Source of the DNA: a virus
Taxonomy: Duplodnaviria > Caudoviricetes
Direction: 5' to 3' (one strand)
DNA length: 63,546 nt
IMG/VR virus record: IMGVR_UViG_3300020122_000568
Coordinates: 1 to 63,546 of that record
Position 1 is the first letter of the stretch. Each line of letters opens with the position of its first letter. The translations under genes and the position numbers were made by a program. Below are positions 568 to 51,855 of this stretch, piece after piece. The notes beneath the pieces were generated by a model that searched no databases, was not told the DNA's origin, and saw nothing but the letters and a program-made list of their open reading frames with translations.

Positions 568-834
568 CGGGCGAGGAGACGCGCGTGGAGCGCCCGCTGC
601 AGCTGACGCCGCTGGTGCCCGAGAAGGAGCCGGCGACGCCCGCGTGGTGGCGATGGGTCGAGCAGGAGTTGGCGGCGCAGGGATACGGGGAGGAGGCGCG
701 CACATGCTGATCGCGGGTCCGTTACACGAAGTCTACTGGGGCATGTTCCGCGCTCGGTACGTCTCGCCGGTGCTGGCGCGAGTCGTGCGCTGGTCGTGGG
801 TCGCTGGGCTGTTCATCTGAGAGGGGGCCGCCAC

Positions 835-2076
835 ATGAAACGCATCGAATCACTGACGGAAGCGCAGGTTGCGCGACTCGACGAGTTCCGCGACAAGTGG
901 CTCGCCATCGGGTTGTCGACGGCGCCGGCCGATCGCGTGGAGGCCGAACGCGGCGTCGAGCTCGCATATCGCGCCGCCGGTCTCGAACCGCCGCGCATTC
1001 GCATCTGGCTCCGTTCCCCGCTCGAGGGAATTATTGGAGCGGCCTACCTCGCCGAAATTTCGCGGCGTATCAAAGAGGCTCCGAAGTCAGCACGAAAGGC
1101 CACGCCGCGAAATTTCGGCGAGCCGGTAAAGGCCAAAGTCAGGGACCAAGTCGGGGACCAAGTCAGGGACCAAGTCAGGGCCCAAGTCAGGGCCCAAGTC
1201 TGGGACCAAGTCGGGGCCCAAGTCAGGGCCCAAGTCGGGGACCAAGTCGGGGACCAAGTCGGGGACCAAGTCAGGGACCAAGTCAGGGCCCAAGTCGGGG
1301 ACCAAGTCGGGGCCCAAGTCGGGGACCAAGTCGGGGCCCAAGTCGGGGCCAAAGTCAGGGACCAAGTCGGGGACCAAGTCGGGGCCCAAGTCTGGGCCCA
1401 AGTCAGGGCCCAAGTCAGGGACCAAGTCAGGGCCCAAGTCAGGGCCCAAGTCTCGAATGCCTGCTTCGGACAGCACGAAGCAGGCTGGGCGAGTTTCTAT
1501 GATTTCTTCGGCAGCGCTTGCGGGCTCGCCGCCGTAGATCGACTCGCCGGACTCACGGCTATCACGCGCGCGGCGGGGTGGTGGTGGCCGTTCCGCGGCG
1601 CGGTCATCTTGACCGAACGACCATGTTTTATTGCGCGCGACGACCGCGGTCGACTGCACTCCGAGACTCGGCAGGCGATCGAATATCCCGACGGCTGGGG
1701 AATCCACGCGTGGCACGGGACGCGTGTGCCGGCGGAGTGGATCACGAATCGCGACAAGATCGACCCGTCGACGGCGCTGACGTGGGCCAATATCGAGCAG
1801 CGACGGGCGGCGGCCGAGATCATCGGGTGGAAGCGCGTCTTGGAGCAGTTGCCGTCGAAGGTCATCGACGCTGACAGTGACCCCGAGATCGGGACGCTCA
1901 TCGAAGTGAACCTTCCCGATGCTGGCCCCGCGAGGTTCCTTCAGGTGCGTTGCGGAACCGGCCGCACGTTCGTTCTTCCTGTGCCCCGAGAAATGCGCAC
2001 CGCCGTCGAGGCGAACGCGTGGACGTATCCGACGATGACACCGCAACGAATCAGAACATTGGAGGCTCGCACATGA
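835..2076 (+). CDS. DUF6745-like protein with central tetrapeptide repeat
   Basis: N-term WLAIGLSTAPADR, C-term GWWWPF..VILTERP..RLH..AIEYPDGWG..AWHG..NIEQRR motifs; ATG at 835. Confidence 0.8.
   Translation: MKRIESLTEAQVARLDEFRDKWLAIGLSTAPADRVEAERGVELAYRAAGLEPPRIRIWLRSPLEGIIGAAYLAEISRRIKEAPKSARKATPRNFGEPVKAKVRDQVGDQVRDQVRAQVRAQVWDQVGAQVRAQVGDQVGDQVGDQVRDQVRAQVGDQVGAQVGDQVGAQVGAKVRDQVGDQVGAQVWAQVRAQVRDQVRAQVRAQVSNACFGQHEAGWASFYDFFGSACGLAAVDRLAGLTAITRAAGWWWPFRGAVILTERPCFIARDDRGRLHSETRQAIEYPDGWGIHAWHGTRVPAEWITNRDKIDPSTALTWANIEQRRAAAEIIGWKRVLEQLPSKVIDADSDPEIGTLIEVNLPDAGPARFLQVRCGTGRTFVLPVPREMRTAVEANAWTYPTMTPQRIRTLEART
1141..1452 (+). repeat. 12-bp coding tandem repeat, 26 units of (A/G/T)GGG(A/C)CCAAGTC encoding [R/G/W][D/A]QV
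   Basis: Read directly from the sequence. Confidence 0.95.
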
Positions 2077-4405: not shown

Positions 4406-5404
4406 ATGGCGACGACGACGACAGCAATCGAGAAGAAGCGTGAGCCGACGGCGATCGAGCAAATCGGCCAGATGCTCGAGGAGCGCAAGTCCAAGCTGGC
4501 GAAGGTGCTCCCGAAGCACATCTCAGCCGATCGCCTGGTGCGCGTCGCGCTGCTGGCGATGGCGCGCAATCCCGACCTGCTGCTCTGCACGCAGGCGTCG
4601 ATTGCGATCGCGGTCGAGCAGGCTGCCCAGTATGGGCTGGAGCCCGGTGGCCCGCTCGGCGACGCGTACCTCGTGCCGTATCGCAATAACAAGCTCGCCG
4701 AGAAGGCCAAGCGCGAAGGCCGGGGCCCGACGCACGAGTGTCAATTGATCCTCGGCTACCAGGGAATGATCTCGCTCGCGCGCCGGTCGGGGGAGATCGC
4801 CAAGATCGAATCCCGCATCGTCCGCGCCGTCGACGAGTTCGACTACCAGTACGGCGACGCTCCGTATCTGCGCCACAAGCCGGCGCCTGGGGATGACGAG
4901 GAGCGCGGCGAGCTCGTGGGCGCCTACGCGGTGGCGACCCTGCGCGACGGCACGAAGCAGTTCGAGGTCATGACCTACCAGCAACTCACCAAGATTCGCG
5001 ATCGCTCGCGTGCGTCCGATAACGGCCCGTGGAGAACCGACTTCGAGGAGATGGCGCGAAAGACGGTCGTGCGGCGCTTGTTCAAGTACCTGCCGAAGTC
5101 GGTCGACATGCGCACGCAGTTGGACCGCGAGGACAACGCGGAGGCGGGAATCTTCGAGGACGCGAGCGGCGGCGAGATCATCGACGGATCGATCGTGGAG
5201 CAGCGCAACACGTTGTCGAGCATCGTCGAGGCGGAGAAGAAGAAGGCGCGTGGGACGAAGTCGGAGTCGCGCGGCAAGGTCGCCGATATGCCGGCGAGCG
5301 AGACCGTCATCGACACGCGCGACCATGCGCCGAACTGCGCGACGCGGGCGCCCGACCCGGGGCCGTGCACGTGCAGCGATGACGACGGCGACGTAGCAGC
5401 GTAA
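4406..5404 (+). CDS. recT: RecT single-strand annealing protein
   Basis: GLEP..LGDAYLVPY..CQLILGYQGMISLARRSG..GPWRTDFEEMARKTVVRRLFKYLPKS. Confidence 0.93.
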   Translation: MATTTTAIEKKREPTAIEQIGQMLEERKSKLAKVLPKHISADRLVRVALLAMARNPDLLLCTQASIAIAVEQAAQYGLEPGGPLGDAYLVPYRNNKLAEKAKREGRGPTHECQLILGYQGMISLARRSGEIAKIESRIVRAVDEFDYQYGDAPYLRHKPAPGDDEERGELVGAYAVATLRDGTKQFEVMTYQQLTKIRDRSRASDNGPWRTDFEEMARKTVVRRLFKYLPKSVDMRTQLDREDNAEAGIFEDASGGEIIDGSIVEQRNTLSSIVEAEKKKARGTKSESRGKVADMPASETVIDTRDHAPNCATRAPDPGPCTCSDDDGDVAA

Positions 5405-49261: not shown

Positions 49262-49795
49262 ATGTCGCTTCGAAGCTCGACCGGGACTCAACTCGCGCGC
49301 GCCGAACTCTACGCATTCGACGACAAGGGCAACCGCATCGCCACCGCTGGCCGCGGCGCGAACGTCATGCCGGTCAAGGAGACGCGCACGTACGTCGAGC
49401 CGGCGACCGTCAGCGAGAGCCAAGACGAACGCCGCGCGCGCGAGGGCCGTCAGGCACGTATCCTCGCCTCGCTCACCGATGACGAGGCGACGGTGCTCCA
49501 CTATCAGGGCAAGCTCGTGTGCCGGATCCAGAAGCCTCGCGAGGTGGCCGGCGGCGACGTCGCGGAATATTTGAACGCGGGCTACGTGCTCAAGCCGGGG
49601 TCGGTGCGATTGCTCGAGCGCGATGGGTTGCCGCCGGTCGAAGTGGCGACCGTGATCGGCTTCGAAGAGGTGCAGGTCGAGCGGCTGAGCTACGACGAGA
49701 TCGCCGAGCACTTGGGCGTGAGCATCCACATGGTCAACAAGCTTGTGGTGTCGGCGAATAAGAAGTTGCGCGCGCTGCGATCGGTCATTTTTTGA
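49262..49795 (+). CDS. Protein with C-terminal sigma-70 region 4-like HTH
   Basis: RBS AGGAGG; LSYDEIAEHLGVSIHMVNKL..ANKKLR. Confidence 0.75.
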   Translation: MSLRSSTGTQLARAELYAFDDKGNRIATAGRGANVMPVKETRTYVEPATVSESQDERRAREGRQARILASLTDDEATVLHYQGKLVCRIQKPREVAGGDVAEYLNAGYVLKPGSVRLLERDGLPPVEVATVIGFEEVQVERLSYDEIAEHLGVSIHMVNKLVVSANKKLRALRSVIF

Positions 49796-50252
49796 TCGAG
49801 CCCAACTGCGGACGCGGCTGCGGAGACGGCACCCCCACTATCGACTTTCGTTCGCTGCGGAACTCTTCATAGGAGCGCAGTCGTCCTTCCAGAAATCGCT
49901 GGTCGTAGTCGGCTGCGGCGCGCTCGCGATCGCTGCCAAGACTGGCTCTGTCGACATGCTTGTTCGCGTGGTAGGCCCGCGCCTCCTGACGATGACCGCG
50001 TAACATGTGGTCATCTTCGATTTCGCGTTGCTCAACATCGGTCAGCAGGTGGATCACATTCAATCGACGTTTCGTGTGGATTCCTCTCCTGTAGAGATAT
50101 CGGCGCAAGCGAGGCTCGATCCTCTTCTTGTCGATCCCGGATGTCTCCACCAGCCATTCGTCACTGACGTCATCACCACGCTTCAATCGATCGACGTGCG
50201 GCTTCAGTCTCACCCATGCCGCTTCAATTTCGTATTTCGATAGAATCGCCAT
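49785..50252 (-). CDS. Hypothetical protein downstream of GGY-NN array B
   Basis: RBS GGAG; co-oriented with RAMP-like gene. Confidence 0.7.
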   Translation of the reverse strand: MAILSKYEIEAAWVRLKPHVDRLKRGDDVSDEWLVETSGIDKKRIEPRLRRYLYRRGIHTKRRLNVIHLLTDVEQREIEDDHMLRGHRQEARAYHANKHVDRASLGSDRERAAADYDQRFLEGRLRSYEEFRSERKSIVGVPSPQPRPQLGSIKK

Positions 50253-50280
50253 TGATTATCTCCATGTTTTTTTCCATCTC

Positions 50281-50395
50281 CCCCCATTGGGGGCCATGCC
50301 TTGCCATGCCACGCCTAGCCCCGCCTCGCCCGACCAGGCCTTGCCTGACCACGCCAAGCCGAGCCTTGCCCTGCCGAGCCCATCCAGACCTTGCC
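50281..50395 (-). ncRNA. GGY-NN pentamer array B (20 units) + terminal hairpin; putative guide RNA
   Basis: GGCAA GGTCT GGATG GGCTC ... GGCAT then GG CCCCC-AAT-GGGGG. Confidence 0.85.
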
Positions 50396-50399
50396 CGGA

Positions 50400-51038
50400 C
50401 TATTTCGTCCTCTTCACAGTCGCCGTAAACATTCCGTACATTCCCGGCTTCTTCGGCGACGATGGGCGCCAATCGCCGACGCCGGCCTTTCCCGCCCCGT
50501 ACCACAGCGTCTCAATGCGATCCTCTCCACTGAGCAGATCCTCATTGTCGGTCTCGAACATGGTCGTCGCCGACCAGTGATCAAACCGCGGACGTACGCG
50601 CGTATGAGACTTCCCATTGATGTTGCACGGCTTGACGAACAATGCGAATCCCAGCGCGCGCACTGCTTGGCAATGCTCCGCGAAGCCGCCGTCGATACGC
50701 TCGACGTCGGCGCGCGGAATGGTCTTGCCGTTCACGAACAGAGGTACGTAGAAGTCACTGAAGAACATCGACTGCGAAGCGGACTTCAATGTCTTCTTGT
50801 TTCCGATGCTCACGCCGCTGCCCGCCTTCAGCAGAGCAGCCAGAAAATTTTCTGCTGGGATGCAGACACACTCGTCGTTGACGTAGAGATACGACTTCCA
50901 CGTGTCAGCCGGGTGCCGGTCATCGCCGGCCTTTCCTCCCTTGCGTCCACGAGCTGCTATTGCGTCGCGCGCCTCGAGATTGTTGTGGTGCATGAGCAAT
51001 GGCGTCGTGCCTTCGATCGTGACTTCGAATCGCTCCAT
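50400..51038 (-). CDS. Solo RAMP/Cas7-like RNA-binding protein (Vipr-like)
   Basis: FEVTIEGTTPLLMH, IPAENFLAALLKAG, RVRPRF..W, Gly-rich loop GAGKAGVGDWRP..GMYGMF. Confidence 0.8.
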   Translation of the reverse strand: MERFEVTIEGTTPLLMHHNNLEARDAIAARGRKGGKAGDDRHPADTWKSYLYVNDECVCIPAENFLAALLKAGSGVSIGNKKTLKSASQSMFFSDFYVPLFVNGKTIPRADVERIDGGFAEHCQAVRALGFALFVKPCNINGKSHTRVRPRFDHWSATTMFETDNEDLLSGEDRIETLWYGAGKAGVGDWRPSSPKKPGMYGMFTATVKRTK

Positions 51039-51150
51039 CGTTTGCTTACCTCTCGCGATGTGCCTCTCTCGGCTCTCTCGGAGTATTCCGAACTGGCCGA
51101 ACTGAACACCATCGCGCGTCGGAATGGGTTCCGGCGCGCTGTGCTGTCAT

Positions 51151-51230
51151 GCTCCATTGGAGCCCTCGCCATGCCGCACCCCGCCCGGCCTTACCGCACC
51201 TCGCCTGGCCGCGCCCAGCCGAGCCCAGCC
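51151..51230 (-). ncRNA. GGY-NN pentamer array A (13 units) + terminal hairpin; putative guide RNA
   Basis: GGCTG GGCTC GGCTG GGCGC ... GGCGA then GG GCTCC-AAT-GGAGC. Confidence 0.85.
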
Positions 51231-51234
51231 GCAT

Positions 51235-51489
51235 TCACCTACAAATCGACGCCCCCGCACAAGTCCACTCGTCGCCGCCATCGCTGCGCACGCACCCGAG
51301 CGACGTCAACTTGTCGTCAACCGCTTGGTCGATCGCAGCCTGCACCGCCGCCGACTGAAGCTTGCACTTGTCGACGAGATCCTGCTCCAGCGTCGCGAGC
51401 TTCGCGTCCACGATTCGCTCGCACTGCTGCTGCAGATCGGGCGGCACGCACCCGCACGCCAGCACCGCGCACAAGGTCAGCACGCGCAT
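51235..51489 (-). CDS. Small lipoprotein
   Basis: MRVLTLCAVLACGC lipobox. Confidence 0.55.
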   Translation of the reverse strand: MRVLTLCAVLACGCVPPDLQQQCERIVDAKLATLEQDLVDKCKLQSAAVQAAIDQAVDDKLTSLGCVRSDGGDEWTCAGASICR

Positions 51490-51855
51490 CGGCGATACCC
51501 CGCGACCTGCACGAGCGGTATCGTCGCCTCGCACGGGTCAGCCTCCACGCCGCGCGCATCCAGTCGTTCGGCCCAGCGGTGAGCCTGCGATCGCGACATC
51601 AGCTTCGACCGCGCGACGGTGCCGTCGGGAAAGCGCACGAGGATGTACCAGCGGTCGTCGGCGCTCACGTTGCGCCGCCGTCCTTGGTGGTGTTGCAGAT
51701 GATCTCGACGATGATCGCGGCATCGGCGAGTGCATGAACAATTGCCGCTCGGCGCGTATCACAGGTCGCGGTGGCCTTGCTGTCGCCGCATCTCGCGACG
51801 GCGCGCCAGCGGTCACCCTGTGGCTCGACAGCGAGTGTGATAGCGAATTCGTGTC

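What the first reader, a model, noticed from the sequence alone, without database searches (positions are those of the whole stretch)
50281..51165. Both arrays end in the same covarying 3' hairpin
Seen: array A ends GG-GCTCC-AAT-GGAGC (51151-51165) and array B ends GG-CCCCC-AAT-GGGGG (50281-50295). They share register, the CC-AAT-GG core and a 5-bp stem, with compensatory changes at two stem positions. This argues for selected RNA structure (3' handle, processing or capping signal) rather than a microsatellite.
Basis: seen in the sequence. Interest (0 to 1): 0.8.

Follow-up and report, generated by a model that had tools for sequence, protein, structure and literature searches.

The report
Hairpin caps on phage VIPR guides

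Summary
On the minus strand, two period-5 (GGYNN)n arrays each end in a 5-bp stem with an AAT loop. The stem starts directly after the last in-phase GG. The two stems differ by two compensatory pair changes.

The locus is a VIPR system (bioRxiv 10.64898/2026.04.26.720920):
- The 212-aa gene between the arrays is a Vipr RAMP protein. Its family profile matches PDB 36pp 'SUSP1 Vipr protein' at E 2.9e-23, and its model resembles Csm3/Cas7.
- The arrays are vrRNAs of 14 and 21 YNNGG repeats.
- The hairpins are their 3' tails.

Evidence from 164 loci that encode relatives of this Vipr:
- 607 of 608 arrays lie on the vipr strand.
- 268 of 531 distinct array ends carry a hairpin of at least 4 bp at exactly this offset, against 19-31 at offsets 0, 1 and 4.
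- Stems covary freely.
- A covariance model built without the window finds only these two sites in it.

By analogy with the SUSP1 3' pseudoknot, the hairpin most likely caps the guide and fixes the repeat register. Here it is a 13-nt minimal form.

Expression, processing and targets remain unshown. This is a new member of a known kind.

The parts
51164..51233 (-). vrRNA A guide tract: 14 YNNGG units (13 GGYNN units plus a leading TGCGG). It starts 2 nt after the stop codon of the upstream 99-aa ORF.
   Evidence: unit list and NN dinucleotides. Y is C or T in all units, and there are 9 distinct NN among 14.
51151..51163 (-). vrRNA A 3' tail: hairpin GCUCC-AAU-GGAGC, directly after the last GG.
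   Evidence: present in the MFE fold in both contexts; model R2, built without the window, scores 38.3 bits, E 2.5e-7..
50400..51038 (-). vipr gene, 212 aa, a RAMP-fold protein.
   Evidence: family profile against PDB 36pp_D 'SUSP1 Vipr protein', E 2.9e-23 over the full length; pLDDT 92.1; top Foldseek hits are Csm (type III) and type VII Cas7-type RAMP subunits; phrog_4652, unknown function.
50294..50398 (-). vrRNA B guide tract: 21 YNNGG units. It starts 1 nt after the vipr stop codon. The third GG unit reads GGA instead of GGY.
   Evidence: 11 of 84 hairpin-ended arrays in related loci also have 21 or more units.
50281..50293 (-). vrRNA B 3' tail: hairpin CCCCC-AAU-GGGGG (alternative register with an AAUG loop). 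It ends 28 nt before the start codon of the next gene.
   Evidence: R2 31.7 bits, E 9.8e-6..
49785..50252 (-). Candidate vap (Vipr-accessory) gene, 155 aa, with winged-helix-like topology followed by long helices.
   Evidence: homologs directly downstream of vipr + array in L202 and L268; a 66%-identical homolog on a 2950-bp contig, the same length as the contig of the 86%-identical Vipr; pLDDT 83, order H-E-H-H-E-E; only weak matches (best E 0.046), mostly winged-helix regulators.

Best explanation
The two hairpins are the 3' tails of two VIPR guide RNAs (vrRNAs) of a soil phage. The minus-strand operon runs: upstream ORF, vrRNA A, vipr, vrRNA B, a winged-helix-like accessory gene.

Inferred mechanism, following the published model:
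- Vipr protomers polymerise along the GGY/NN repeats, one protomer per 5 nt.
- They hold the GGY triplets and expose the NN dinucleotides.
- The NN dinucleotides read double-stranded DNA with one skipped base per unit and silence it.

The helix that begins directly after the last GG ends the repeat tract. [quoted passage not shown] It may also mark or protect the mature 3' end once the guide is cut from the polycistronic transcript. In this Vipr clade the tail is reduced to a 13-nt hairpin of 5 bp with a 3-nt loop. Its shape is conserved but its stem sequence is not.

Shown here: the identity of Vipr, the array architecture, and the position-specific, covarying hairpin. Inferred: transcription, processing, Vipr binding, and the cap or nucleation role.
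For: 1. Protein.
- A profile of 45 homologs matches PDB 36pp_D 'SUSP1 Vipr protein' at E 2.9e-23, positions 1-214 against 1-190.
- The AF2 model has pLDDT 92.1.
- 63 Foldseek matches have E <= 0.001, and all those listed are CRISPR type III Csm/Cmr or type VII effector complexes.

2. Arrays.
- They fit the published vrRNA definition of GGY/NN repeats flanking vipr on its strand.
- In 164 related loci, 607 of 608 arrays are on the vipr strand.

3. Hairpin position.
- A perfect hairpin of at least 4 bp starts at offset 2 of a terminal unit at 268 of 531 distinct array ends.
- The counts at offsets 0, 1 and 4 are 20, 31 and 19. Offset 3 gives 111, but this is inflated by nested stems.

4. Covariation.
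- There are 37 distinct 5-bp/3-nt-loop hairpins in 40 loci.
- In the 36-row alignment all 5 pairs show double changes. 53 cells changed on both sides against 11.7 in shuffles, and 28-40% of cells pair when the partner is slid. RNAalifold predicts the same helix.
- A selection that ignores pairing (three in-phase GG units plus AAT at +7..+9) gives 60 distinct sites. Of these, 50 have 5 of 5 Watson-Crick pairs and 5 have 4 of 5. None has 5 of 5 when the arm is slid by 1-2 nt. There are 11 different stems.

5. Strand.
- Among 44 sites with one non-Watson-Crick pair, 19 are G-U and 4 are A-C.
- L202's third tail keeps its outer pair as G-U.

6. Model.
- Model R2 was built only from other loci. It finds the two window sites at E 2.5e-7 and 9.8e-6, and the next hit is at E 0.26.

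7. Closest locus held, L202 (63% Vipr identity).
- It has vipr, a 23-unit array and GG-ATCCC-TAT-GGGAT, followed by a homolog of the 155-aa gene.

8. SUSP1.
- SUSP1's own tails also begin their first helix directly after the last GG (my reading).

9. Phylogeny.
- Tail class follows the Vipr tree: 41 changes against a shuffled mean of 76, and as low in 0 of 200 shuffles.

10. Self-targeting.
Against: - No target was found for either guide.
- 263 of 531 array ends in related loci lack a hairpin of at least 4 bp at this offset by my criterion. Tails are therefore heterogeneous, or many of my 'ends' are internal breaks, staggered junctions or other tail types.
- Alignment A3 was picked for perfect stems, so its 100% pairing is circular. 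Only searches are free of that.
- Array B has 21 units, outside the 9-16 stated in the discovery paper.
- The cap role rests on SUSP1's much larger pseudoknot. The P. fulva complex is reported to lack such a marker, so a structured cap may not be essential.
- A 5-bp stem is weak on its own. Folds of the whole regions are not clearly better than shuffles for A (z -0.86).
- The accessory-gene assignment rests on synteny and weak fold matches.
- Relatedness inflates tree-clustering and shuffle statistics.
Confidence: 0.88

Rival explanations
1. The hairpin is mainly an endonucleolytic processing signal, like the repeat hairpin that Cas6 cuts. It would define where the guide is released from the operon transcript and would play no part in the finished Vipr filament.
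For: Both arrays lie inside an operon with no room for their own promoter. A starts 2 nt and B 1 nt after a stop codon, and no promoter-like or terminator-like site lies at the arrays, so some processing is needed. The discovery paper reports ribozyme-interspersed arrays in other types, which shows that 3'/5' end formation is a recurring need.
Against: In SUSP1 the tail stays on the mature RNA and is seen in the complex. The third paper treats the tail as what makes a vrRNA competent for Vipr complex formation. No nuclease gene is evident in the locus. This reading does not exclude the cap role.
Confidence: 0.2
2. The hairpins are intrinsic terminators or attenuators that set the relative expression of vipr and the downstream gene.
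For: Each lies in the untranslated stretch upstream of a gene.
Against: There is no U-run after either stem, and the terminator scan finds nothing there. The stems are only 5 bp. The same hairpin type occurs between consecutive arrays in other loci, where no gene follows (for example L159 and L123).
Confidence: 0.03
3. The inverted repeats act in double-stranded DNA, for example as operators for the winged-helix-like accessory protein or as recombination sites.
For: A DNA-binding-like protein is encoded next to them.
Against: Stem sequences change freely while pairing is kept, which is the opposite of a protein-read DNA site. Wobble pairs are G-U on the array strand (19) far more often than A-C (4). 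The position is tied to the strand and register of the repeats.
Confidence: 0.03
4. This is a chance palindrome or a by-product of microsatellite slippage.
For: The 7-mer core CCAATGG is not rare, with 11 copies in the window over both strands.
Against: The joint chance of two such hairpins at fixed positions is about 2e-6, and they are the only AAT-loop hairpins of this kind in the window. The NN spacers are diverse, so the arrays are not slippage products. The feature recurs in unrelated sequence backgrounds.
Confidence: 0.01

Closest known systems
vrRNA 3' tail of the Escherichia phage SUSP1 VIPR system (type II VIPR; bioRxiv 10.64898/2026.04.26.720920 and 10.64898/2026.04.26.720927)
   Same: Both are structured elements directly 3' of the last GG of a GGY/NN guide tract, on the vipr strand. 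In both, the first helix starts at the base after the GG (my reading of SUSP1 DNA). The partner protein is homologous. There is one guide upstream of vipr and guide(s) downstream.
   Different: SUSP1's tail is a roughly 40-nt conserved sequence that folds into a pseudoknot and is called 'invariable'. Here it is a 13-nt simple hairpin with no second helix. The two tails of one locus differ in stem sequence. Ten related loci also carry two different stems. Vipr identity to SUSP1 is so low that it is detectable only by profile: single-sequence E 0.094 against profile E 2.9e-23.
Repeat-derived 3' hairpin handle of class 1 CRISPR crRNAs (Cas6-bound stem-loop)
   Same: A variable guide is capped at its 3' end by a small conserved stem-loop. 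The guide is bound by a filament of RAMP-fold subunits. The discovery paper itself draws this parallel.
   Different: There is no CRISPR repeat-spacer array, no Cas6, no adaptation genes, and the periodicity is 5 nt rather than 6 nt. The guide is read non-contiguously. Membership in CRISPR-Cas is not claimed.
TRAP-binding (G/U)AG repeats with 2-3 nt spacers in Bacillus trp leaders (recalled, no call)
   Same: Period-5 triplet-plus-spacer RNA repeats are read by an oligomeric protein, one subunit per repeat.
   Different: The triplet is different and the protein fold is unrelated. TRAP repeats act in attenuation, not guidance. This was my first working idea and was dropped once Vipr was identified.

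Membership tests
VIPR system (Vipr + vrRNA) | A Vipr protein: a small (~20 kDa) RAMP homolog with a glycine-rich loop. | tested here: met
   212 aa. The profile hits PDB 36pp_D 'SUSP1 Vipr protein' at E 2.9e-23 over the full length, and the G-x-GDWRP stretch aligns. G183, G186 and D189-P192 are invariant in 45 homologs. The fold matches Csm3/Cas7-type RAMPs. The thumb domain was not inspected separately.
VIPR system (Vipr + vrRNA) | vrRNA tract of tandem YNNGG units with conserved GGY and hypervariable NN. The paper states 9-16 units. | tested here: met
   A has 14 units and B has 21. B is longer than the stated range, but 11 of 84 hairpin-ended arrays of related loci also have 21 or more units.
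VIPR system (Vipr + vrRNA) | A structured 3' tail directly after the repeat tract. | tested here: met
   A 5-bp hairpin with a 3-nt loop follows both arrays. The same position and covarying stems occur in related loci. The form differs from the SUSP1 pseudoknot.
VIPR system (Vipr + vrRNA) | A minimal locus with an accessory vap gene, encoded by a virus. | tested here: inconclusive
   Viral origin is met: the record has direct terminal repeats and 100% estimated completeness. The 155-aa downstream gene is syntenic in L202 and L268 and has a winged-helix-like topology. Its Foldseek matches are weak (best E 0.046), and I could not compare it with vap1-6 because the supplements are closed.
VIPR system (Vipr + vrRNA) | vrRNAs are expressed as small RNAs of about 100 nt and co-purify with Vipr. 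| not testable with these tools
   This needs small-RNA sequencing and a pull-down.
VIPR system (Vipr + vrRNA) | Natural DNA targets match the NN code with one skipped base (>= 80% NN match), and there is no self-target. | tested here: inconclusive
   No self-target: the best matches are 64% and 52%. No outside target was found, but only exact 10-unit patterns could be scanned. Four genome hits do not extend beyond the seed.
VIPR type I-VII assignment | Vipr phylogeny, vrRNA architecture and vap identity as defined in the discovery paper. | not tested
   The type definitions are in supplementary data that I could not open. The architecture of one guide on each side of vipr and a putative DNA-binding accessory gene is compatible with the DNA-binding-vap types (II, VI, VII), but no type is assigned.
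Rfam RNA families | A match at a family's gathering score. | tested here: not met
   0 matches in the whole window on both strands.
Intrinsic terminator | A G+C-rich stem followed by a U-run. | tested here: not met
   No terminator-like site lies at either hairpin, and no T-run follows either stem.

The most novel reading that the evidence does not exclude
In a large, mostly uncultured Vipr clade the vrRNA tail is reduced to a 13-nt hairpin. Only its shape and its position, starting on the base after the last GG, are selected. Vipr (or the filament end) would then recognise a generic helix rather than a sequence. Tails within one locus would be interchangeable. Guides of 21 or more repeats, beyond the reported 9-16, would be loaded from this cap. 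That would make this clade the smallest natural VIPR guide scaffold.
Probability: 0.5. Interest if true: 0.5.

Novelty: new member of a known kind. Interest (0 to 1): 0.4.

Why it matters
The finding re-derives, from raw sequence alone, a feature of the VIPR systems described in 2026. It places an uncultured 63.5-kb soil phage in that family.

- Annotation: no curated library used here names the protein or the RNA. ORF callers also read through such arrays (Donkeykong gp48).
- Biology: the tail can be as small as a 5-bp hairpin, with stems that drift by compensatory change. This bears on how the Vipr filament is started or ended.
- Engineering: a 13-nt tail would shorten synthetic guides.

The general concept is already in print, so the result is not surprising in itself.

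Tried and rejected
1. First working ideas, dropped once the literature search and the profile match identified VIPR: a TRAP-like or ring-protein binding site, two-tetrad G-quadruplexes, a Rho rut site on the C-rich complement, and a coding pentapeptide repeat.

2. Close relatives.
- Single-protein scans of viral contigs with the 212-aa and 155-aa proteins found no relative.
- blastn of the locus against the phage collection gave only a short match of array B to an array in Mycobacterium phage Donkeykong.
The closest DNA held is L202 at 63%.

3. Targets.
- Four exact 10-unit one-skip patterns (3' ten units of A and B, 5' ten of A, middle ten of B) gave 0 hits in viral contigs.
- The two 3' patterns were also run against genome contigs. 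A gave 4 hits in unrelated taxa that match only 0-2 of the 8 further bases. B gave none.

4. Expression. No RNA holder was listed for the stretch (after four unanswered tries: 76, 83, 89, 94).

5. Natural variation. Contigs of four soil DNA runs were identical to the window where they covered it, so they gave no variation to test.

6. Libraries. Pfam, NCBIfam and PADLOC gave nothing for Vipr or the 155-aa protein. PHROGs gave only phrog_4652, unknown function.

7. Model R1 included the window's own sequences. It was replaced as evidence by R2.

9. Supplementary files of the VIPR papers were not opened. They may already show tails of other clades and the type of this clade.

Full report
**What is in the sequence.**
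- The window is a complete virus record of 63,546 bp with direct terminal repeats.
- Read on the minus strand, 51233..51164 and 50398..50294 are arrays of 5-nt units with GG at fixed phase, a pyrimidine next and two free bases. There are 14 and 21 units.
- They are the only runs of 5 or more such units in the window, on either strand.
- Each array is followed at once by a hairpin: GCUCC-AAU-GGAGC at 51163..51151 and CCCCC-AAU-GGGGG at 50293..50281.
- The 5' arm starts on the base after the last in-phase GG in both. The two stems differ at the outermost and the third pair, each time on both sides.
- A perfect hairpin of 5 bp with a 3-nt loop occurs at 186 of 127,066 positions of the window. These two are the only ones with an AAT loop.
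- RNAfold keeps the hairpin in every context tried. For B it prefers a register with a 4-nt loop, because there is a sixth G.

**Context.**
- Both arrays are intergenic in one minus-strand gene string: a 99-aa ORF (51534..51235), array A, a 212-aa ORF (51038..50400), array B, then a 155-aa ORF (50252..49785).
- Array A begins 2 nt and array B 1 nt after a stop codon.
- No promoter-like or terminator-like site lies at the arrays, and neither stem is followed by a T-run.
- Rfam gives no match in the window at gathering thresholds.

**How the element was identified.**
Most hits were GGC/GGT-NN arrays with diverse spacers, often several per locus, often just upstream of genes, and often followed by some hairpin.
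[quoted passage not shown] I read its abstract, Results, Discussion and four Methods sections, plus passages found by term. I did not see its supplements.
- The preprint describes VIPR systems as follows:
  - a small phage-encoded RAMP protein, Vipr;
  - vrRNAs of 9-16 YNNGG repeats whose NN dinucleotides read DNA with one skipped base per unit;
  - a 3' 'tail' with conserved secondary structure, a pseudoknot in the SUSP1 clade;
  - an accessory vap gene.
- From passages of a third preprint: the shared tail is treated as what makes a vrRNA competent for Vipr complex formation.
- From passages of a fourth: period-5 VIPR arrays were recovered from intergenic sequence at large scale.

**Membership tests.**
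- Alone, the 212-aa protein matches the PDB chain named 'SUSP1 Vipr protein' only weakly (E 0.094).
- A profile of 45 homologs matches that chain over its full length at E 2.9e-23, and the glycine-rich G-x-GDWRP stretch aligns.
- Its AlphaFold2 model is confident (pLDDT 92.1, pTM 0.87).
- The model's Foldseek matches are Csm and type VII Cas7-type RAMP subunits. 63 have E <= 0.001.
- The family is large: 655 representatives at E <= 0.001 among 1.84 billion proteins.
- Pfam, NCBIfam and PADLOC do not name it. PHROGs has it as phrog_4652, function unknown.
- The 155-aa protein has homologs directly downstream of vipr plus array in L202 and L268.
- It also has a 66%-identical relative on a 2950-bp contig, the same length as the contig that holds the 86%-identical Vipr.
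- Its model has a helix-strand-helix-helix-strand-strand order followed by long helices.
- Its fold matches are weak and are mostly winged-helix regulators (best E 0.046, none <= 0.001). It is a plausible vap, not a proven one.

- *Strand.* 159 of the 164 loci hold arrays, and 607 of 608 arrays are on the vipr strand.
- *Position.* Among 531 distinct array ends, a perfect hairpin of at least 4 bp with a 3-5 nt loop starts at offset 2 of a terminal unit in 268.
  - The counts are 20, 31 and 19 at offsets 0, 1 and 4.
  - Offset 3 gives 111, but this count includes the inner part of longer stems.
  - The common forms are 4 bp with a 4-nt loop (116 sites, often GTAT) and 5 bp with a 3-nt loop (83 sites, mostly AAT).
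- *Stem diversity.* The 5-bp/3-nt class has 37 distinct sequences in 40 loci, and ten loci carry two different stems.
- *Covariation.* In a 36-row alignment that includes the two window sites, all five pairs show changes on both sides.
  - 53 cells changed on both sides, against 11.7 in shuffles.
  - Pairing falls to 28-40% when the partner is slid.
  - RNAalifold predicts the same helix.
  - That alignment was chosen for perfect stems, so its pairing rate is circular.
- *First check free of that bias.* I selected sites by sequence only: three in-phase GG units and AAT at +7..+9.
  - This gives 60 distinct sites in 28 loci.
  - 50 have 5 of 5 Watson-Crick pairs and 5 have 4 of 5.
  - None has 5 of 5 when the 3' arm is slid by 1 or 2 nt.
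  - There are 11 different stems.
- *Second check.* A covariance model built from 34 tails of other loci, without the window, finds the window's two sites at E 2.5e-7 and 9.8e-6. The next hit in 63.5 kb over both strands is at E 0.26.
- *Strand of the structure.* Of 44 sites with a single non-Watson-Crick pair, 19 are G-U and 4 are A-C.
- *Closest locus held, L202 (63% Vipr identity, partial gene).*
  - It has a 23-unit array after vipr that ends GG-ATCCC-TAT-GGGAT, followed by the homolog of the 155-aa gene.
  - It has a further array whose tail is GTCCC-TAT-GGGAT, which keeps the outer pair as G-U.
- *Phylogeny.* Tail class is clustered on a FastTree of 142 distinct Vipr sequences: 41 changes against a shuffled mean of 76, and as low in 0 of 200 shuffles. 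Relatedness alone can produce such clustering.

**Comparison with SUSP1.**
- I located vipr in the SUSP1 record with the profile (E 4.5e-24) and read its four arrays.
- In my reading, each tail begins its first helix on the base after the last GG, as here. That helix encloses the 5' arm of a second helix, which gives the published pseudoknot of about 35-40 nt.
- The window's tails keep only a first helix, with a 3-nt loop.
- The junction geometry is therefore shared, while size and topology differ.
- Here the two tails of one locus also differ in sequence, whereas the paper calls the SUSP1 tail invariable.

**Mechanism.**
- Shown here: a Vipr homolog, two guide-like arrays on its strand, and a position-specific hairpin with covarying stems.
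- Inferred from the papers: the arrays are transcribed with the operon; Vipr polymerises along GGY/NN at one protomer per unit; the NN dinucleotides read DNA with one skipped base.
- A role purely as a processing mark is a live, non-exclusive rival.
- Terminator, DNA operator and chance readings are contradicted.

**What is against or missing.**
- 263 of 531 array ends in related loci have no such hairpin by my criterion. Some are internal breaks or other tail types, such as the roughly 50-nt structured tails of L126-L157.
- Array B has 21 units, beyond the stated 9-16. However, 11 of 84 hairpin-ended arrays in related loci also have 21 or more units, against a median of 13.
- Neither guide has a self-target: the best matches are 18 of 28 and 22 of 42. 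This agrees with the paper's control.
- No outside target was found either. Only exact 10-unit patterns could be scanned.
- The P. fulva complex is reported to lack a pseudoknot-like marker, so a structured cap may not be universal.
- Nothing here shows transcription, processing or binding.

**Verdict.**
- The element belongs to a kind already in print since 2026, so the locus is a new member.
- The part that may add something is the minimal, sequence-free hairpin tail and the long guide B.
- The supplements that I could not open may already cover tails of other clades.

Noticed in passing
L290 617-1003 (Mycobacterium phage Donkeykong NC_051648.1 36870-37256): The annotated CDS gp48 'hypothetical protein' is about 330 nt of GGCNN repeats with occasional 4-nt units. 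It lies just upstream of gp49, whose C-terminal part weakly matches this Vipr (35% identity over 74 aa, E 0.2). It looks like a staggered vrRNA array mis-annotated as a gene. 33 Mycobacterium and Gordonia phage records gave such weak Vipr-like hits.
   Followed up: partly
window 51105-51148 (-), core 51114-51139: A second, stronger bipartite stem-loop (CGCGC.CGGAA....UUCCG.GCGCG type) lies in the 110-nt stretch between tail A and the vipr start. It has no counterpart after tail B and no T-run. Its function is unknown.
   Followed up: no
window 1136-1452 (+): A 12-nt tandem repeat (26 copies, 91% matches) lies in frame inside a 426-aa ORF (796..2076). It encodes about 26 tetrapeptide repeats of the form Q-V-(R/G)-(D/A).
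   Followed up: partly
window 50224-50505 (-) and 51147-51281 (-): Mechanical ORFs of 93 and 44 aa run straight through the arrays. GGYNN repeats contain few stop codons in any frame, so gene callers can mistake vrRNA arrays for genes.
   Followed up: no
L126-L128, L137, L139-L157 (arrays upstream of vipr): Many related loci have arrays that end in a different, roughly 50-nt conserved tail. It begins with a short hairpin (for example GCTG-AATT-CAGC) followed by a longer helix. This may be the ribozyme-type or another tail class mentioned in the discovery paper.
   Followed up: no
L031 about 4486-4605 (-): One array is followed directly by a sequence that looks like a tRNA T-arm and acceptor 3' half (GGTTCGA-containing helix). 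This is my reading and was not checked with a tRNA finder.
   Followed up: no
window 49262-49795 (+): A 177-aa ORF with a sigma-70 region-4 match (E 3.7e-6) converges on the end of the VIPR operon and overlaps the 155-aa gene's stop by 11 nt.
   Followed up: no
window 50200-51300: Contigs from four further soil-metagenome runs match the locus with 0 differing letters where they cover it. The same phage strain therefore recurs in several soil data sets, which may belong to one campaign.
   Followed up: partly
L202 1240-1350: The closest related locus has a third array after the accessory gene. The window has none there, because the convergent sigma-like gene follows instead.
   Followed up: partly
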